IMG/VR virus record: IMGVR_UViG_2684622620_000011
Location: 1 to 9,345 of that record
DNA length: 9,345 nt
DNA from: a virus
Lineage: Duplodnaviria > Heunggongvirae > Uroviricota > Caudoviricetes
Reading direction: 5' to 3' (one strand)
Positions 1 through 6,737 of this stretch are shown one piece after another. Position numbers and translations under genes: made by a program. Every line of letters begins with the position of its first letter. Position 1 is the first letter of the stretch. The notes beneath the pieces were generated by a model. The model was not told the DNA's origin. It made no database searches and saw nothing but the letters and a program-made list of their open reading frames with translations.

Positions 1-25
1 TGAACCGCCCCGGGTTTCCTGGAGA
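1..25. repeat. Terminal inverted repeat of the left IS copy (orfB-proximal end)
   Basis: TGAACCGCCCCGGGTTTCCTGGAGA matches the reverse complement of 1286..1310 at about 22 of 25 positions; positions 1-13 and 17-25 are identical. Confidence 0.8.
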
Positions 26-42
26 GTGTTTTATCTGTGAAC

Positions 43-933
43 TCAGGCTGCCAGATCATCGTTTCCGATGGAAGCATAATAAGCTTTTTCTGCTTCTGCC
101 GGAGGAGTATGGCCCAGCCTTCCCAGCAATCGTCGATTGTTATACCAGTCCACCCACGTTAGTGTGGCCAGTTCCACTTCTGCACGGTTTTTCCAGCTCT
201 TACGGTGTATTACCTCCGCTTTGTAAAGACCATTGATGCTCTCAGCCATCGCGTTGTCATACGAGTCGCCTGTACTCCCTGTTGATGCCAGTAATCCGGC
301 TTCTTTTAGTCGCTCCGTATAGGCCAGTGACACATACTGAGAGCCTTTATCGCTGTGATGGATGGTGCCAGACGGACGACGGGCCCACAACGCCTGCTCC
401 AGCGCATCCAGCACGAATGTCGTTTCCATAGACGATGAGACCCGCCACCCCACGATGTATCCGGCAAACACATCAATGATAAACGCCACATAGACGAAGC
501 CCTGCCATGTGCTGACGTAAGTAAAATCAGCCACCCACAGCTGGTCAGGTCGTTCTGCCACGAACTGACGGTTTACGCGGTCGCCTGCGGCAACGGCTTT
601 CCGGCTGATGGTCGTACGGACCTTTTTACCCCGGAGAACACCGGCAAGTCCCATAACCGCCATGAGACGTGCCACTGTACATCTGGCCACCCTGATTCCT
701 TCCCGTAACAACTGACGCCAGACTTTACGCACACCGTACACCTGATGATTTTCATCGTATACGCGCTGTATCTCTCTCTTCAGCCAGTCGTCGTGCTGCG
801 CACGGGCACTGCGTTTATCCGGATGATGTCGCTGTTGCTGACAATGGTAATACGTTGACGGGGCAATATGCAGTTCGCTGCATACCGGTCCGACCCCGTA
901 CTGCTCACGCAGCTTATCCAGCAGTGGCATCAT
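43..933 (-). CDS. IS3-family transposase OrfB (DDE/integrase catalytic domain), 296 aa
   Basis: ATG start overlaps the orfA stop by 4 nt (ATGA). Protein shows integrase-core hallmarks (W..DFTY, HSD.GSQY, ...[10 protein letters not shown]). Identical to the ORF at 8413..9303. Confidence 0.9.
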
Positions 934-1256
934 TTTTTCCAGAGGCGGTCGAACTCCGCCTTCGCAAAATAAGCGGAAGCCTGGCGAAGGATATCGTTAC
1001 TGCGGCGCAGTTCACGATTTTCACGTTCCAGCTCTTTCAGACGCTGACGTTCAGCGCTGGTGAGCCCACCATCACCGCCCCCGGTATCCCGCTCATGCTG
1101 GCGAACCCAGACACGCAGAGTCTCCGGCGTACAGCCAATCTTTGGGGCAATGGAACAAATTGCCGCCCACTGTGAGTCATATTCATCCTGACTTTCCAGA
1201 ACCATACGAATCGCCCGCTGACGGACTTCGGGGGAAAAACGAGTATTTTTAGTCAT
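930..1256 (-). CDS. IS3-family transposase OrfA (HTH and leucine-zipper DNA-binding subunit), 108 aa
   Basis: Starts [22 protein letters not shown]... with a helix-turn-helix region and a heptad Leu repeat ([18 protein letters not shown]). Identical to the ORF at 8090..8416. Confidence 0.9.
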
Positions 1257-1285
1257 CCTGTTTACCTCTTTCTCAGGGAGTTTAG

Positions 1286-1310
1286 TCTCCAGGATTTCCG
1301 GGGCGGTTCA
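1286..1310. repeat. Terminal inverted repeat of the left IS copy (orfA-proximal end)
   Basis: Reverse complement reads TGAACCGCCCCGGAAATCCTGGAGA, an imperfect match to 1..25. Confidence 0.8.
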
Positions 1311-1730: not shown

Positions 1731-1939
1731 CCTAAACAACTTCCAACGTATGATCCGCTTCTCGCTCTCAGCAGACCTTTATCTGCAGGTGCTTGTCTGC
1801 TGTGTTCCAGAAGCAGATATTATTATATAACTCTTTAACCCATGTATGACAAAATATTCTTGGAGCTTATTAAAACTTCATACGTCTAAATCACCTCTTC
1901 ATTAGTGAATCAATAATTGTATAGTTAAAATGTAACACT

Positions 1940-2605
1940 TTATTTTTTATGATTAACTTGCTTTGCTAAAGAGCTATAAATCATATCAACCAAAACATAT
2001 TTTTCGCATTCCCAAGGTTCACTAATAGATGGGTTTACTAAGTCTGGCTTCCCCCCCATTAGTGTATGAACATGCGAATAAATACCTATTCTTTCTGCGA
2101 GCTGCATTATTTTTATTTGATGTTCTGGTGGGAGCATTTTGTTTTTAAACCATGTTGTAAATATATGCTTGGTAAGTTCCTTAGTACAAACAAACCATTC
2201 ACCTTGACGTCTTTCGTTGCTAAATTTTTCATGAAGATAGTTTTCTTTTTCTGAACCACCTGGTTCCAAAGCGTGTAATATTAATTGACCAAATGCACCT
2301 GTCTGCAGGTTAGACAACCTTTTTAGCACATTATTGGAACGCCCTATTTTCACATAAAGTCCCGAGTAAGGGTTATTTTTATCTGAAGAACCGGCCCAAG
2401 TATCAGGCACTTGTAAAATATAATAAATACTACTTACTTTCCCACTCGATACATTATTTGCCCAAATCTGCCATTCTTCCATCCAGCTTTTTGCATCTTC
2501 TCTCGTGTCAAAGGCATGACTTGTATAGTAAAATTCACCAGTATCCAAGAACATATCGAAAACATATTTGCCATTCTCTATAATTCTTAAGTTGTCGGCT
2601 TTCAT
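1940..2605 (-). CDS. T5orf172/MUG113-domain (GIY-YIG superfamily) protein, 221 aa, with N- and C-terminal extensions of unknown function
   Basis: Central motifs IYYIL...GLYVKIGRSNNVLKRLSNLQTG...YLHEKFSNERRQGEWF fit the T5orf172 pattern (G-x-Y-K-I-G, R-x-x-x-L, H-x-x-F...R-x-GEWF). ATG at 2605 with a GAGA-type ribosome-binding site. Gene and flanks are strongly AT-rich compared with the rest of the window. Confidence 0.75.
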   Translation of the reverse strand: MKADNLRIIENGKYVFDMFLDTGEFYYTSHAFDTREDAKSWMEEWQIWANNVSSGKVSSIYYILQVPDTWAGSSDKNNPYSGLYVKIGRSNNVLKRLSNLQTGAFGQLILHALEPGGSEKENYLHEKFSNERRQGEWFVCTKELTKHIFTTWFKNKMLPPEHQIKIMQLAERIGIYSHVHTLMGGKPDLVNPSISEPWECEKYVLVDMIYSSLAKQVNHKK

Positions 2606-2809
2606 GGAAGTTTCTCACAAAGTTACAGGAATATATAAAAACTTTACTACGCTTAGTATATATTACCACCTGATTATGTATTATTTGATTTACACAACTT
2701 ATTGCTAGTAATAACGGTTTTGATGTAATCTTCTCATCCCAAACTAACCTTCAAAATAGATTTAATCTAAATTATATCAAAATATGCTCTCAGTTAAGAT
2801 GGCTTATTT

Positions 2810-3007
2810 TTAATCAGTTAGAGGATCAACCTGATTTTCTCTAATAAGATTTCGTAACGCAGTACGAGCAGCCGCGACTTCTGTCATTCCATTTAGAACC
2901 ACGCTGGAATGCCCTCCTCTAACCCCAAAGACTGTGACCATATCCTCTTCACGGAAGTATTCTGCTTCATACTGAAGGCCATCTTTCTCTACGCGAATAT
3001 ATGACAT
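2810..3007 (-). CDS. Hypothetical small protein, 65 aa
   Basis: ATG at 3007 preceded by GAGG about 6-9 nt upstream. Composition is like the phage backbone, not the AT-rich block. No recognisable motif. Confidence 0.5.
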   Translation of the reverse strand: MSYIRVEKDGLQYEAEYFREEDMVTVFGVRGGHSSVVLNGMTEVAAARTALRNLIRENQVDPLTD

Positions 3008-3633
3008 AACAACCTCATTTTATTATCTTTTGTTTGAATGATATATCCACAAAATAATTTAAGCAATCTCGCCCAAGACGGTACGCCAAGCTTGCCTTGT
3101 AAGTATACTGTAAATATTCCGATAAAACTAATCATTCGCTTTTAGCGCATGTCCAAAAAATGGTTCAGGTATCCTATCGTGCCAATATTCGCTCCTCACT
3201 CATAGCGGCTTTCAGGCAAGTTAACTAGTCCGCTCGGTGCCATATAGAGCCATGGTTATTAACAGCAGGGAATAATTCCACACTGAAATTAAATGTCTAC
3301 CTTTTACAGTAGAAATAGTTCCTCCAGGACACTATCCATTGCCGGGCACAATCACTCGGGGTATAACGATATAAAATATGTTCATGATAGTGCAGGTTCG
3401 TATATTAAGTTCAGCAGCGAAAACATGCCTTACAGGTTTCCGGTTTTGGGAGCGTCGTTACAGGATCCTGTGCATACCGTTCCCATCTGTTGAATTAAAG
3501 GTTTCACAGCCTTTGCCGATATCACCTTTTACCTTGCCTGTGATGCGTTCAGTGCTCAGCGTTGTTTACTGTAGCTCTCGGAACTGATTACAGACCGCGT
3601 CTTAAAAACCAATCCTTACTCTAAAGGGAATTC

Positions 3634-4557
3634 ATGAGATTAAAATACTCAGTACTCTTACTCGCCATTGCCCTTACAGGCTGTGATAACAAAAAAGATG
3701 AGATCGGTTGTTCTTCGGAAATGACCCAATCAGCTCTCATGGATTTATTAAAAAAATCTGCTTATGAAGGACTCTCTGAACAGGTCGATAAATACCCTGA
3801 TGTCACTAATCAGACCAAACGAAGCACACTGGACAAGATCAAACTAGCCGTCTCTGAAATCTCCACAACATCAAGTGACACGGGCAGCACAATGAAAACT
3901 TGTGAAGGGACCGTGACGATGACTCTACCTGCGAACGAGTACATCCAGCTTTCTGATGCTTACCGAAAGAATTTTAATCGTAATCTCGATAAGCAAATGG
4001 AAAATCTGTTTTTGGAGAACAACGCAAACGCCTTTTCAAAACGTATCACCTACACCGTGCAGGCGACCGACGATCAGAAAAACGTTTTTGTAAAAACCTC
4101 TTCTGATAATCCGATATCAGTGGGCGCCGCTTTACTGACATCGCTTTCCATTATCAACCCGATCGTTGAGCAGCAGAAAATCCAGCAGGCTAAGGATGCC
4201 CAACAGAGTCAAATTGAAGCGGAACAACAGGTGCAACTCAGGGCACAGGAACAGGCCAGGTATGAGGCGGAGAAGCAAATAGAGAGGCAGGCACAACTTC
4301 AGCCGCAAAAAGCTGAAAGCCTTGATCAGTCCCGAATGGCATTTGCGAATGCTGACTCTGATTTGAATACAGTCTGGGGCAGGTTAACGCCGGCGAAGAA
4401 AAAAGAGTTGCTGCCTTCTCAGCGTCAGTGGATCAAAACTAAGGATGCTATGTGCGGTAAAGTTTCAATGCAGGGAACAGATGCTGAAGTCAAGAAAATG
4501 GTCGACTGCCAGACGCAAATGACCCTTTCAAGAATCGCTTTCCTCAGAAACCAATAA
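3634..4557 (+). CDS. Lipoprotein with a Q-rich coiled-coil middle and a C-terminal DUF1311/LprI-like domain, 307 aa
   Basis: N-terminus MRLKYSVLLLAIALTGC has a signal peptide and lipobox (LTG-C). C-terminus LLPSQRQWIKTKDAMC...VDCQTQMTLSRIAFL matches the DUF1311 signature (Q-x-x-W-x-x-x-R-D-x-x-C ... C ... T-x-x-R). AAGGGA ribosome-binding site 7-8 nt upstream of the ATG. The only long plus-strand gene in the insert. Confidence 0.8.
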   Translation: MRLKYSVLLLAIALTGCDNKKDEIGCSSEMTQSALMDLLKKSAYEGLSEQVDKYPDVTNQTKRSTLDKIKLAVSEISTTSSDTGSTMKTCEGTVTMTLPANEYIQLSDAYRKNFNRNLDKQMENLFLENNANAFSKRITYTVQATDDQKNVFVKTSSDNPISVGAALLTSLSIINPIVEQQKIQQAKDAQQSQIEAEQQVQLRAQEQARYEAEKQIERQAQLQPQKAESLDQSRMAFANADSDLNTVWGRLTPAKKKELLPSQRQWIKTKDAMCGKVSMQGTDAEVKKMVDCQTQMTLSRIAFLRNQ

Positions 4558-5795: not shown

Positions 5796-6017
5796 TCAAT
5801 CAACTTCAAACCTCCGGTGTTCACATTCCATACACTCAACGGGAACATCATCGCGATGCAAGTCCACATATCCGACCCGCTTATACAACTCAATAATGTC
5901 CGGTAACGTGACCAGATGTTTTTCCGGTTCCAACACCTCAGCCCTGGTTACTTTGTAATCTGAAATATAGAGCACTATCCGCCCGTTCCGTGGTAACTCC
6001 AGTTTATCGCCAAACAT
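5796..6017 (-). CDS. Hypothetical small phage protein, 73 aa
   Basis: ATG at 6017 with GGAGGGAAAGGA Shine-Dalgarno sequence immediately upstream. Last gene of the minus-strand operon. No recognisable domain; C-terminus has a CxxC (CMEC) pair. Confidence 0.6.
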   Translation of the reverse strand: MFGDKLELPRNGRIVLYISDYKVTRAEVLEPEKHLVTLPDIIELYKRVGYVDLHRDDVPVECMECEHRRFEVD

Positions 6018-6091
6018 GTCCTTTCCCTCCGGGAAACCAATGATATTGACGATATTACACCCACAAAGATTCGTTTTACGTCACTCCGCAA

Positions 6092-6208
6092 TCACCATAC
6101 ATACGTACCAATCCGTACATTCCCACCACAAAAATGGCATTCGGCGGGCACTGGTAATGGATTTTTAACGCGTGCTATTGCCTTGCGACGTATTTTCAAT
6201 TCACTCAT
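6092..6208 (-). CDS. Possible unannotated small ORF, 38 aa (MSELKIRRKAIARVKNPLPVPAECHFCGGNVRIGTYVW)
   Basis: ATG at 6208..6206 overlaps the stop of the upstream ORF (ATGA) and is preceded by GGGAGG 5 nt upstream. Below the 60-aa cutoff of the ORF track. Contains one CxxC pair. Translated by hand. Confidence 0.35.
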   Translation of the reverse strand: MSELKIRRKAIARVKNPLPVPAECHFCGGNVRIGTYVW

Positions 6209-6429
6209 ACAGCCTCCCTGCTCTCAAACGGGCGAATATTGGTTGGTTCTCCACACGGAATGGCCCAACCCAGCCAGGTAAATATTTTCAGATCACACAT
6301 CGCGTCATACCGTTCGCCCGGATTCACATCCACCATGCTGCAGGCAATTTCATATTGTTCACCATTATCAGTCAGTGCGATCTGGTCATTAATAAACCGG
6401 GGCACAAATGCAAGAAAAAGCTCTTTCAT
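6205..6429 (-). CDS. Hypothetical small phage protein, 74 aa
   Basis: ATG at 6429 with GGAGGA Shine-Dalgarno sequence; ATGA overlap with the upstream gene, consistent with translational coupling. Confidence 0.6.
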   Translation of the reverse strand: MKELFLAFVPRFINDQIALTDNGEQYEIACSMVDVNPGERYDAMCDLKIFTWLGWAIPCGEPTNIRPFESREAV

Positions 6430-6737
6430 GAAATCCTCCGCTCAAAATAAACAAACTGATTCACCGCTCCGATCGGCATTTCGAGTTTTTCCGCGATATC
6501 CTGGCGATTAATACCCGACTGATGTAATTCCCTTGCCAGCTCGACATCTTCCTGTAGGTATTTCGCTGACTGGTGATAATTACCCCGCAGATACATACAG
6601 ATTTTCAGCTCGCGCGCTTTTGTGCGTACCGACGCAGCGGTTCTGCCAATAAGCTGCCCTATACTTTCAACTGTCATGCTGCCTGCACATTGTTTGATGA
6701 TTACGACTTCCGCACGCACCCACCGTTTGTATTTCAT
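6426..6737 (-). CDS. Hypothetical phage protein, 103 aa, possibly DNA-binding (two helix-turn-helix-like segments)
   Basis: ATG at 6737 with GGAG upstream; ATGA overlap with the upstream gene. Segments SIGQLIGRTAASVRTKAREL and NRQDIAEKLEMPIGAVNQFV look HTH-like by eye only. Confidence 0.55.
   Translation of the reverse strand: MKYKRWVRAEVVIIKQCAGSMTVESIGQLIGRTAASVRTKARELKICMYLRGNYHQSAKYLQEDVELARELHQSGINRQDIAEKLEMPIGAVNQFVYFERRIS

What the first reader, a model, noticed from the sequence alone, without database searches (positions are those of the whole stretch)
1940..2605. T5orf172 domain flanked by unassigned N- and C-terminal regions
The recognisable motifs sit between roughly residues 60 and 150. 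The N-terminal segment (MKADNLRIIENGKYVFDMFLDTGEFYYTSHAFDTREDAKSWMEEWQIWANN...) and the C-terminal segment (...HIFTTWFKNKMLPPEHQIKIMQLAERIGIYSHVHTLMGGKPDLVNPSISEPWECEKYVLVDMIYSSLAKQVNHKK) match nothing I can name. The domain also has an insertion (PDTWAGSSDKNNPYSG) between the first strand and the KIG motif. The flanking regions could be sensor or regulatory modules.
Basis: partly seen in the sequence, partly recalled or inferred. Interest (0 to 1): 0.55.

Follow-up and report, generated by a model that had tools for sequence, protein, structure and literature searches.

The report
YegP-like domain fused to T5orf172 nuclease
This prophage gene encodes a rare stand-alone DNA-cutting enzyme whose "unassigned" front end is a diverged copy of the widespread but functionally unknown YegP domain; it travels alone between phages, plasmids and integrons, so it probably acts in conflicts between mobile elements, but that role is untested.

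Summary
Window 1940-2605 (minus strand) encodes a 221-aa protein with a T5orf172/MUG113 (GIY-YIG clan) core above Pfam thresholds. Its catalytic positions are invariant in the family: Y61/Y62, K86-I-G88, R96, and E121, which corresponds to the experimentally essential E180 of ICP1 Odn. A family-specific ~14-residue insertion separates the first strand from the KIG motif.

AlphaFold gives one confident compact body (pLDDT 91, pTM 0.86), reproduced on a 43%-identical member. The three-part architecture is a sharply bounded, rare family: about 15 of 1.84 billion representatives, and 18 of 5,426 complete E. coli genomes.

No neighbouring gene is conserved. The gene occurs in lambdoid and filamentous prophages, a plasmid-like contig, a PARIS-adjacent islet, and as a single-gene integron cassette.

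Best reading: an autonomous endonuclease carried by mobile elements, probably for defence or exclusion, with the YegP-like domain recognising nucleic acid or mediating dimerisation. The function is inferred. This is a new variant of a known kind, of moderate interest.

The parts
1940..2605 (-). Whole ORF, 221 aa plus stop (stop codon at 1940-1942). Identical to RefSeq WP_021560857.1, 'GIY-YIG nuclease family protein'.
   Evidence: P0001 is 100% identical
2435..2605 (-). Residues 1-57: divergent DUF1508/YegP (UPF0339)-like domain with three strands (2-8, 14-19, 25-28) and a helix (35-49). W45 and W48 are invariant. It keeps the repeat's G-x-Y-x-F...(N/T)GE...S...aromatic...A pattern.
2408..2434 (-). 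Residues 58-66: first strand of the GIY-YIG core, 'SIYYILQV' (the GIY equivalent). Y61 and Y62 are invariant.
2357..2407 (-). Residues 67-83: family-specific insertion 'PDTWAGSSDKNNPYSGL' in the beta1-beta2 hairpin. P67, W70, G72, G82 and L83 are invariant.
2141..2356 (-). Residues 84-155: T5orf172/MUG113 core from the KIG strand to helix alpha3. It contains K86-I87-G88; R96 (8 residues after G88); L100 at the position of the usual His/Tyr; E121 and H125 in helix alpha2; and G135-E136-W137-F138.
1943..2140 (-). Residues 156-221: family-specific C-terminal extension. It comprises 'MLPPEHQ', a long helix (160-183), an extended 'PDxVNPS...W...D' segment and a short helix (212-219). L158, P159, N191, P192, W198 and D207 are invariant.
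2810..3007 (-). 65-aa ORF upstream of the nuclease. It travels with the nuclease only in the enterobacterial subclade (91% identical copy in a Morganella prophage) and is absent from all other loci. It is possibly a linked accessory gene, and is not a family-wide partner.
1754..3103 (-). 1.4-kb block (65-aa ORF + nuclease gene + ~190 nt downstream, including a terminator-like hairpin at 1730-1708 just beyond it). It is shared at 84% nucleotide identity between the E. coli and Morganella prophages, at different positions in each.

Best explanation
The gene encodes an autonomous, single-polypeptide DNA endonuclease carried as cargo by mobile genetic elements. It has three integrated parts. (i) An N-terminal divergent YegP/DUF1508-type domain; I infer that it supplies substrate recognition, most likely of single-stranded or structured nucleic acid, and/or dimerisation. 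(ii) A catalytically intact T5orf172 (GIY-YIG clan) core that cuts DNA using Y61, R96 and the metal-binding E121. (iii) A ~14-residue insertion in the beta1-beta2 hairpin plus a 66-residue C-terminal extension; I infer that these wrap the core and shape or gate its DNA-binding face, as the extra elements of GIY-YIG restriction enzymes do. The most likely biological role is conflict between genetic elements: anti-phage defence or superinfection exclusion for the host of the prophage, integron or plasmid that carries it.

Shown: the domain composition; conservation of the catalytic residues; the compact confident fold; that the architecture is a single unit; the absence of a conserved partner gene; and the mobile or defence-type contexts.

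Inferred: nuclease activity; what the N-domain binds; the role of the C-extension; and the defence function.
For: Core identity and catalytic residues: Pfam hits are above the gathering cut-offs. Y61, Y62, K86, I87, G88, R96, E121, H125 and E136 are invariant in 29 and 22 homologues. E121 is in register with Odn E180, which is required for cleavage in vitro and in vivo (PMC8263062).

One integrated body: pLDDT 90.7 and pTM 0.86; the same layout with pLDDT 91.2 and pTM 0.84 for a 43%-identical member.

Architecture is a unit: a sharp cliff in the exhaustive search, and searches with the C-terminal and N-terminal profiles return only fragments of the same family.

Autonomy: it is a single-gene cassette bracketed by attC repeats in V. 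vulnificus, and no ORF other than the nuclease is shared across loci.

Context: a lambdoid prophage accessory region; the integrase-proximal end of a prophage; the end of a CTX-like filamentous prophage; a ParAB plasmid-like contig; and an islet beside a DUF4435 + AAA_15 (PARIS-like) pair.

Selection: all segments are under purifying selection, and the N-domain evolves fastest, as expected for a recognition module.
Against: There is no experimental or direct bioinformatic link to defence. PADLOC gives only sub-threshold core matches, no NCBIfam model hits, and no paper in the searchable library tests this family.

A stand-alone nuclease without an immunity partner needs some restraint on self-cleavage, and none was identified.

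The biochemical function of YegP domains is unknown, so 'nucleic-acid recognition' rests on a published structural analogy only.

I had no access to model coordinates or PAE, so the packing of the flanks onto the core is inferred from pTM and from conserved Trp/Pro residues.

Several copies are decayed or IS-disrupted, which fits a selfish or toxic gene as well as a defence gene.
Confidence: 0.5

Rival explanations
1. It is a free-standing homing endonuclease: a selfish gene that cuts a cognate site in genomes lacking it and spreads by repair-mediated copying, with no benefit to its host.
For: T5orf172 proteins are a major class of putative homing endonucleases in phages (PMC10448857). The gene lies between other genes in a prophage and has much lower GC (~35%) than its surroundings. 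Decayed copies are frequent: a frameshift in L014, an in-frame stop in L016 and an IS chimera in P0074. That pattern fits the homing endonuclease gain, decay and loss cycle.
Against: It lacks the Zn-finger (CapR/DUF723/DUF4397), RepA_N or HTH DNA-binding domains that accompany almost all T5orf172 homing endonucleases (no such Pfam hits). It occurs as an attC-bounded integron cassette, in a chromosomal islet and on a plasmid-like contig, where homing is not the means of movement. In E. coli it is present only as part of a larger 1.4-2.4 kb block, in 18 genomes at >=99.3% identity, not as a precise presence/absence polymorphism of the gene alone.
Confidence: 0.2
2. It is a phage recombination or replication accessory: a structure-specific endonuclease (SLX1-like, functionally analogous to RusA or Rap/NinG) that resolves branched DNA for the prophage.
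Against: The position is not conserved. The gene is beyond the integrase in Morganella, at the end of a filamentous prophage, on a ParAB contig, in a non-phage islet and in an integron cassette. It is very rare among lambdoid prophages (18 of 5,426 E. coli genomes). The SLX1 match is simply the generic GIY-YIG core.
Confidence: 0.12
3. It is the toxin of a toxin-antitoxin, addiction or abortive-infection module, and its partner is a small neighbouring ORF (in enterobacteria, the 65-aa protein at 2810-3007).
For: The 65-aa ORF travels with the nuclease between two different prophages (91% amino-acid identity; 1.4-kb block at 84% nucleotide identity). Vibrio integron arrays are rich in toxin-antitoxin cassettes, with BrnT and ParE in the same array. 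A constitutively active nuclease would need an inhibitor.
Against: No partner is conserved beyond the closest relatives. The Vibrio cassette contains only this gene. Gaps of 200-250 nt separate the 65-aa ORF from the nuclease, unlike tightly coupled toxin-antitoxin pairs.
Confidence: 0.1
4. It is a non-catalytic DNA-binding or regulatory protein that only retains the T5orf172 fold.
For: T5orf172 was originally annotated as a DNA-binding domain, and homing endonucleases can moonlight as repressors (PMC8096241).
Against: Every catalytic position that could be tested is invariant across the family, and the core has the lowest dN/dS (0.06-0.09). CapR, the one 'domesticated' example, has lost the T5orf172 domain altogether.
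Confidence: 0.05

Closest known systems
ICP1 Odn (Gp88), origin-directed T5orf172 nuclease (PMC8263062)
   Same: An N-terminal targeting domain is followed by a T5orf172 core. Both have the same KIG/KVG-R-...-E-x-x-[LI]-H-E motif register, with our E121 matching Odn E180. Both lack the His/Tyr in helix alpha1 (L100 here). Both act alone in conflicts between genetic elements.
   Different: Odn's N-domain is a RepA_N iteron-binding domain; ours is YegP-like. Odn has the canonical short beta1-beta2 spacing and no long C-terminal extension. Odn is encoded by a lytic phage to destroy a satellite, whereas this gene is carried by prophages, integrons and plasmids. No significant whole-protein similarity was seen: ICP1 was not among the phage tblastn hits.
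YegP / UPF0339 / DUF1508 proteins (PDB 2K8E, 2K49, 2K7I, 3BID, 6Q2Z)
   Same: Residues 1-57 have the same three-strand-plus-helix fold. They align without gaps to the repeat and keep the G-x-Y-x-F, (N/T)GE, S, aromatic and Ala positions.
   Different: They are not detected by Pfam PF07411. The helix carries a family-specific W-x-x-W-A-N motif. There is a single copy fused to an enzyme, whereas known YegP proteins are free single or tandem repeats of unknown function.
Menshen NsnA with N-terminal tandem DUF1508, and Shedu nucleases with N-terminal sPC4/Whirly-type domains (PMC12065111)
   Same: A DUF1508-type or Whirly-like module sits at the N-terminus of a defence protein or nuclease and is proposed to sense nucleic acid.
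   Different: Menshen is a three-gene system and NsnA is not a GIY-YIG enzyme. There DUF1508 is tandem; here it is single, so a Whirly-like surface would need dimerisation. No sequence relationship to those proteins was tested.
Ordinary phage/prophage T5orf172 proteins, e.g. HK106 gp64 (YP_007151734.1)
   Same: This is the closest phage relative of the core (41.6% identity over residues 67-143), with the same KIG...R...E..LH..F...GEWF motifs. It is also a lambdoid-phage moron.
   Different: It is 162 aa and ends right after helix alpha3. It has the canonical beta1-beta2 spacing and an unrelated N-terminus.
GIY-YIG restriction endonucleases (Eco29kI, Hpy188I). From my own knowledge; not tested here.
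   Same: A minimal GIY-YIG core is elaborated by insertions and terminal extensions that build the DNA-recognition surface, and the enzyme is a stand-alone defence nuclease.
   Different: Those enzymes have cognate methyltransferases, and none is linked here. No detectable sequence or fold match beyond the core.
PHROG 8130
   Same: There is a full-length match (E 3.6e-78), so the family is already catalogued among phage proteins.
   Different: The PHROG carries no functional annotation or domain dissection.

Membership tests
T5orf172 / MUG113 (Pfam PF10544 / PF13455; GIY-YIG clan) | Score above the Pfam gathering threshold | tested here: met
   MUG113 39.9 bits (cut-off 22.3) and T5orf172 30.8 bits (cut-off 20). 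All homologues carry both precomputed domains.
T5orf172 / MUG113 (GIY-YIG clan) | First-strand Tyr (GIY equivalent) and second-strand KIG/YIG motif | tested here: met
   S59-I60-Y61-Y62 lies in strand 59-66 and K86-I87-G88 in strand 84-90. All are invariant.
T5orf172 / MUG113 (GIY-YIG clan) | Catalytic Arg in helix alpha1, about 8 residues after the motif Gly | tested here: met
   R96 is invariant and lies 8 residues after G88. The spacing equals that of I-TevI G19-R27 (from memory).
T5orf172 / MUG113 (GIY-YIG clan) | Metal-binding Glu in helix alpha2, equivalent to I-TevI E75 / Odn E180 | tested here: met
   E121 is invariant. The motif E-x-x-L-H-E-x-F is in register with Odn 'E180-QRIHEEL'.
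T5orf172 / MUG113 (GIY-YIG clan) | Canonical ~10-11 residue spacing between the two motif strands | tested here: not met
   There are 25 residues from Y61 to K86, a conserved ~14-residue insertion. This is a variation within the fold and not a reason to exclude membership.
T5orf172 / MUG113 (GIY-YIG clan) | Metal-dependent endonuclease activity | not testable with these tools
   Requires purified protein.
DUF1508 / YegP / UPF0339 (Pfam PF07411) | Match to the Pfam model | tested here: not met
   No PF07411 hit for any of 18 N-terminal segments even at E<=10. The profile search against PDB sequences finds 2k7i only at E 9.2, though in register.
DUF1508 / YegP / UPF0339 | Profile-profile similarity to authentic repeats | tested here: met
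   hhalign probability 77.8%, P 1.9e-5, 39 gapless columns. 200 column shuffles reach at most 15.0 against the real 25.8; the reversed alignment scores 7.6.
DUF1508 / YegP / UPF0339 | Three-strand-plus-helix fold of the repeat | tested here: met
DUF1508 / YegP / UPF0339 | Conserved Asn (NGE) and Tyr of the repeat (invariant in the 7 reference repeats) | tested here: inconclusive
   In the hhalign register the Asn column is T22 here (N, S or T in the family, followed by invariant-like G-E), and the Tyr column is F32 (F or Y in the family). These are conservative substitutions, not identities.
Free-standing homing endonuclease | Separate sequence-specific DNA-binding domain (Zn finger, HTH, RepA_N) | tested here: not met
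   No such Pfam domains in either flank, and no conserved Cys/His cluster.
Free-standing homing endonuclease | Precise presence/absence polymorphism of the gene alone between otherwise collinear genomes | tested here: inconclusive
   In E. coli the gene occurs only within a 1.4-2.4 kb block in 18 genomes. Empty sites in related prophages were not examined.
Known anti-phage defence systems (PADLOC-DB v2) | Significant match to a system model | tested here: not met
   Only weak partial hits: PDC-S57 at E 0.004 on the core, and a REase_II model at E 0.004 on residues 5-57.
Integron gene cassette (the Vibrio vulnificus copy) | Single ORF bounded by attC-type repeats within an array | tested here: met
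   In L003, repeats at 5909-6033 and 6701-6831 bracket the gene at 6001-6702. There are 14-16 repeat copies across 10 kb.

The most novel reading that the evidence does not exclude
The protein is a previously unrecognised single-gene anti-phage (or anti-plasmid) defence system. Its YegP-type domain would be the trigger-sensing or substrate-selecting module, for example dimerising into a Whirly/PC4-like surface that recognises single-stranded or replicating foreign DNA and licenses the GIY-YIG core to cut. If true, it would also give the first biochemical function for the widespread, decades-old 'unknown' YegP/DUF1508 domain, and a tractable 221-aa model in which to study it.
Probability: 0.3. 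Interest if true: 0.65.

Novelty: new variant of a known kind. Interest (0 to 1): 0.42.

Why it matters
T5orf172 nucleases are abundant (about 29,000 clusters at 50% identity), but only a handful have been studied, and all of those have classical DNA-binding domains. This family shows a different solution: a YegP-type domain, a hairpin insertion and a unique C-terminal wrap, fused into one compact body that moves as a single gene among prophages, plasmids, islets and integron cassettes.

It is small and confidently modelled, and it has clear point-mutant predictions (Y61, R96, E121, W45/W48, truncation at 156). That makes it a cheap test case for two open questions. The first is what YegP/DUF1508 domains actually bind; they also appear in Menshen, in Bub ubiquitin-like proteins and downstream of CapK/CapS regulators. 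The second is how partner-less nucleases on mobile elements avoid killing their host.

If it turns out to be only another selfish or accessory nuclease, the result is still a corrected annotation: 'DUF1508-like + T5orf172' in place of the generic 'GIY-YIG nuclease family protein'.

Tried and rejected
1. The Foldseek search against AFDB50 could not be run because the library is not installed. BFVD and PDB were used instead. BFVD matched only the core (query-normalised TM 0.28-0.37).

2. 'Stand-alone' C-terminal proteins of 49-98 aa looked like evidence for a portable module. They are fragments. They start at internal Met codons; L014 is frameshifted at a contig end, L015 is a near-full copy, and L016 is a full gene with an in-frame stop.

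3. P0074 matched only the C-extension but is a transposase::nuclease-tail chimera from an IS-disrupted copy.

4. N-domain-less T5orf172 proteins whose matches ran to profile position ~190-200 (P0089, P0113, P0118, P0172 and others) lack the LPPEHQ/NPS/W signature. Their overlap is generic helical similarity.

5. The PHROG 8130 profile length (434, against our match at 99-333) suggested longer relatives. None were found, and family members are 211-252 aa.

6. Pfam CSTF_C hit 6 of 17 C-segments (best E 8e-4, below the 24.3-bit cut-off). It covers only 17 residues of the LPPEHQ helix and I treated it as chance.

7. The search for a conserved partner gene (all-against-all ORF BLAST over seven loci) was negative.

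8. The promoter scan gave no signal above shuffles: 8 found against 9.4 expected.

9. I had assumed that CapR was a non-cutting T5orf172 protein. The paper shows it is only the Zn-finger domain, so I dropped it as a model.

10. The N-domain profile searched against 5.8 billion proteins found only fragments of the same family. There is thus no evidence that this N-domain variant is swapped onto other effectors, although the search is word-seeded and insensitive for a 57-residue profile.

11. Literature searches found no paper that tests this family or any YegP-nuclease fusion.
Full report
**1. What is at the coordinates**

Window 1940-2605 holds a 221-aa ORF on the minus strand. The + strand frame is full of stops. 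The protein is identical to RefSeq WP_021560857.1, annotated only as 'GIY-YIG nuclease family protein'.

Pfam places MUG113 (PF13455) at residues 85-147 (39.9 bits, cut-off 22.3) and T5orf172 (PF10544) at residues 74-152 (30.8 bits, cut-off 20). PHROG 8130, of unknown function, matches the full length at E 4e-78. PADLOC gives only sub-threshold partial hits, and NCBIfam gives none.

**2. Where the window comes from**

The window is exactly two complete, 100%-identical 1,310-bp IS3-family copies in inverted orientation (1-1310 and 8036-9345) around 6,725 bp of prophage DNA. From memory, that length fits IS629/IS1203.

In E. coli RM10042 the same DNA is uninterrupted. It lies in a lambdoid prophage integrated at tRNA-Ser/mtfA, in the accessory region between the replication genes and Q. 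In the window the IS copies truncate a DnaB-type helicase (7421-8035) and a 134-aa hypothetical protein (1308-1619).

The region around the gene has ~35% GC, against ~50-55% elsewhere in the window. Only 18 of 5,426 complete E. coli genomes carry the locus, all at >=99.3% identity.

**3. The family**

A search of 5.8 billion proteins found 34 clusters. Nearly all are 211-242 aa long and match over 88-100% of the query, down to ~45% identity. Named sources are Enterobacter, Morganella, Klebsiella, Vibrio vulnificus, Photobacterium and Thiohalophilus.

In the alignment of 29 sequences, invariant residues occur in all three segments:
- N-terminal part: W45, W48.
- First strand, insertion and core: Y61, Y62, P67, W70, G72, G82, L83, K86, I87, G88, R96, L100, T102, G103, E121, H125, F128, R132, R133, G135, E136, W137, F138.
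- C-terminal part: H147, L158, P159, N191, P192, W198, D207.

An exhaustive HMMER search of 1.84 billion representatives with this profile gave 29,453 hits at E<=1e-3, but only 12 at E<=1e-30. There is a cliff between 97.6 and 85.5 bits. Above it are full-length members or fragments of them. Below it, proteins match only profile positions ~84-152. The three-part architecture is therefore a small, sharply bounded subfamily of a very large superfamily.

A Limisphaerales MAG carries a full three-part copy with an in-frame stop (L016), so the family extends beyond Gammaproteobacteria.

**4. Structure**

AlphaFold2 with the family alignment gives mean pLDDT 90.7 and pTM 0.86. The elements are:
- strands 2-8, 14-19 and 25-28, then helix 35-49;
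- strand 59-66, a loop, then strand 84-90;
- helix 93-101, strand 107-115, helix 118-127, short strands 132-134 and 137-139, helix 142-155;
- long helix 160-183, an extended segment with bridges at 189-190 and 204-205, and helix 212-219.

A second model, of a 43%-identical member (P0032), gives the same layout with pLDDT 91.2 and pTM 0.84. The high pTM for a three-segment protein argues for one rigid body. I could not inspect coordinates or PAE, so that point is an inference.

**5. The core and its catalytic residues**

Published work establishes several points. T5orf172 is a GIY-YIG subfamily. ICP1 Odn (Gp88) cleaves DNA in vitro and in vivo. Its E180A mutant is inactive, and E180 was chosen by alignment with I-TevI E75. 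Odn keeps the catalytic Arg and Glu but lacks the His/Tyr of helix alpha1 (PMC8263062).

I retrieved Odn (L012:9828-10508, minus strand). E180 lies in 'YDT-E-QRIHEEL'. Our 'EK-E-NYLHEKF' and HK106 gp64 'RET-E-NMLHRKF' share the register E-x-x-[LIM]-[LI]-H-x-x-[FL]. So our E121 corresponds to Odn E180, and H125 to Odn H184. MAFFT itself shifts Odn by four columns, so this register is read from the motif.

R96 lies exactly 8 residues after G88, as R27 does after G19 in I-TevI (from memory). L100 occupies the missing His/Tyr position, as in Odn. E136 (in GEWF) lies 15 residues after E121, the same spacing as I-TevI E75 to N90; that equivalence is my inference.

**6. The insertion**

Y61 to K86 spans 25 residues. 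Ordinary T5orf172 proteins have about 11: HK106 gp64 'VYVLSSKKTGLTKIG', P0089 'IYFISDGRGFIKIG', P0113 and P0172.

The Pfam models begin matching only at residue 74 or 85, and other T5orf172 proteins match the family profile only from ~81-85. The inserted loop (residues 67-83) is conserved, with a mean majority-residue fraction of 0.67 and invariant P67, W70, G72 and G82.

**7. The N-terminal segment**

Before running any structure tool, I noticed that 'GKYVFDMFLDTGEFYYTSHAFDTREDA' resembles the YegP repeat.
- Foldseek against the PDB independently gave high probability (0.9-1.0) only to the same proteins, e.g. 3bid at 2.0 A over 47 columns with target TM 0.65.
- At the sequence level, Pfam does not detect DUF1508 in any of 18 N-terminal segments. 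A profile search of PDB sequences finds 2k7i only at E 9, though in register.
- I built a reference alignment of seven authentic repeats from PDB chains 2k8e, 2k49, 2k7i, 3bid and 6q2z. hhalign against the N-terminal profile gave 77.8% probability and P 1.9e-5, with 39 gapless columns aligning residues 6-44 to repeat positions 4-42.
- Two hundred column shuffles scored 8.5+-1.8 (max 15.0) against the real 25.8, and the reversed alignment scored 7.6.

What is known about the domain:
- It forms homodimers (6Q2Z) or tandem pseudo-dimers (2K8E) (bioRxiv 10.1101/2024.11.21.623966).
- Tandem copies at the N-termini of Menshen NsnA proteins are proposed to be sensors with sPC4/Whirly-like single-strand-binding topology (PMC12065111).
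- yegP homologues lie downstream of the DNA-damage-responsive immune regulators CapK/CapS in 57 cases (PMC13373217).
- Its biochemical function is unknown.

A search with the N-terminal profile found only fragments of this same family, so this variant is not seen on other effectors.

**8. The C-terminal segment**

HK106 gp64 ends just after helix alpha3, so the ordinary core ends at about residue 155. Residues 156-221 match nothing in Pfam; a sub-threshold CSTF_C hit covering 17 residues was rejected. They also match nothing in PDB sequences.

A profile search returned short 'proteins' that are all fragments of family members. The one hit in the exhaustive search that matched only this segment is a transposase::nuclease-tail chimera (P0074). 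The extension is conserved (majority fraction 0.61; dN/dS 0.12-0.19).

It is therefore a family-specific elaboration that never occurs apart from the core. It is neither part of the standard T5orf172 fold nor a portable module. With its invariant Pro and Trp residues and the high pTM, I infer that it packs on the core together with the hairpin insertion.

**9. Selection**

Pairwise dN/dS values:

| Pair | N-domain | Core | C-extension |
|---|---|---|---|
| E. coli vs Enterobacter | 0.17 | 0.09 | 0.16 |
| E. coli vs Morganella | 0.39 | 0.06 | 0.19 |

All parts are constrained, and the N-domain changes fastest.

**10. Genomic context**

No neighbour is conserved. All-against-all BLAST of ORFs from seven loci shares only the nuclease. 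The settings are:
- a lambdoid prophage accessory region (E. coli);
- the integrase-proximal end of another lambdoid prophage at icd (Morganella);
- the end of a CTX-like filamentous prophage next to smpB (L010);
- a ParA/ParB plasmid-like contig (L019);
- a three-gene islet between core genes, beside a DUF4435 + AAA_15/21 pair that looks like PARIS (Enterobacter);
- beside DUF3800 and a DEAD helicase (L009);
- beside transposases (L016, L017);
- in Vibrio vulnificus, a single-gene cassette bracketed by attC-type repeats (5909-6033 and 6701-6831) in an array that also holds BrnT and ParE toxin cassettes.

The N-terminal 'extensions' of the Vibrio proteins are translated attC sequence. The cassette shows that the gene is a self-sufficient unit. 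Sedentary integron cassettes are documented reservoirs of compact single-gene defence systems (bioRxiv 10.1101/2024.07.02.601686), although that paper does not mention this family.

E. coli and Morganella share a 1.4-kb block (window 1754-3103, 84% nucleotide identity) that includes a 65-aa ORF upstream of the nuclease. More distant loci share only the nuclease ORF.

**11. Interpretation**

The evidence shows a catalytically intact T5orf172 endonuclease with a YegP-like N-domain, a hairpin insertion and a unique C-extension, inherited and mobilised as one gene by many kinds of mobile element.

The most economical reading is a stand-alone nuclease used in conflicts between genetic elements (defence or exclusion). 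The N-domain would provide recognition and/or dimerisation, and the insertion and extension would shape or gate the active-site face. That functional step is inference.

The rivals are:
- a free-standing homing endonuclease, supported by decayed copies and the phage setting, but weakened by the absence of a DNA-binding domain and by the integron, plasmid and islet contexts;
- an SLX1-like structure-specific recombination nuclease, suggested by its position in the E. coli prophage, but that position is not conserved;
- the toxin of a toxin-antitoxin or abortive-infection pair with the 65-aa ORF, which is linked only in enterobacteria;
- a non-catalytic binder, which the invariant catalytic residues contradict.

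**12. Novelty and score**

The gene is annotated and catalogued (RefSeq, PHROG 8130), and its core is a known kind. I found no description of a YegP-T5orf172 fusion, of the insertion, or of the C-extension in the searchable literature. I rate it a new variant of a known kind, with interest 0.42. It is not surprising in principle, but it is a compact and tractable entry point to the function of YegP/DUF1508 domains and to the question of how partner-less nucleases on mobile elements are controlled.

Noticed in passing
window 1-1310 and 8036-9345: Two complete, 100%-identical 1,310-bp IS3-family elements (OrfA 108 aa, OrfB 296 aa) lie in inverted orientation exactly at both window ends. From memory, the length fits IS629/IS1203. 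The window is therefore IS - 6,725 bp of prophage - IS. That is either a composite-transposon-like unit or an assembly contig bounded by repeats. The IS copies truncate a DnaB-type helicase (7421-8035) and a 134-aa hypothetical protein (1308-1619).
   Followed up: partly
window 2810-3007 (-): A 65-aa ORF with no family match lies upstream of the nuclease. A 91%-identical copy occupies the same position in a Morganella prophage (L018:7552-7749), within a shared 1.4-kb block (window 1754-3103). It is absent from all more distant loci. It may be a small regulator or partner specific to the enterobacterial subclade.
   Followed up: partly
window 3634-4557 (+): A lipoprotein-like protein with a C-terminal LprI (lysozyme inhibitor) domain (Pfam E 5e-8; phrog_5094 E 1e-183) is encoded on the opposite strand in the same low-GC accessory block. 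It is a separate prophage moron.
   Followed up: no
L006-L008: 7892-9923: In Enterobacter the nuclease sits in a small islet next to a DUF4435 protein and an AAA_15/AAA_21 ATPase. That pairing is typical of the PARIS (AriA/AriB) defence system, which suggests a defence hotspot between opu-type transporter genes and an NMT1/ABC operon.
   Followed up: no
L003: 5909-6831: The Vibrio vulnificus copy is a single-gene integron cassette. The database proteins with N-terminal 'extensions' (P0014, P0018-P0020) start inside the upstream attC repeat (the peptide 'RHSPLNAALA' is translated attC). Their true start is probably a TTG/CTG/GTG codon near 'LNVQNIKK'.
   Followed up: partly
L014, L016: 4834-5459, and P0074: Several family members are decayed: a frameshift (L014), an in-frame stop in the N-domain beside an IS200-type transposase (L016, Limisphaerales MAG), and an IS insertion that creates a transposase::nuclease-tail fusion ORF (P0074). 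This suggests frequent inactivation, as expected for a costly or selfish nuclease.
   Followed up: partly
window 1940-2605 (-), residues 5-57: A PADLOC 'REase_II' model (PDLC03432, profile positions 233-285 of 462) weakly matches the YegP-like N-domain (E 0.004). This hints that some type II restriction enzymes may contain a similar domain.
   Followed up: no
L001: 15793-16679: In the intact E. coli prophage the genes just upstream of Q are DUF1367 and DUF1364, and no RusA or NinG-type resolvase is annotated. This is relevant to the rival idea that the GIY-YIG protein substitutes as a structure-specific nuclease.
   Followed up: no
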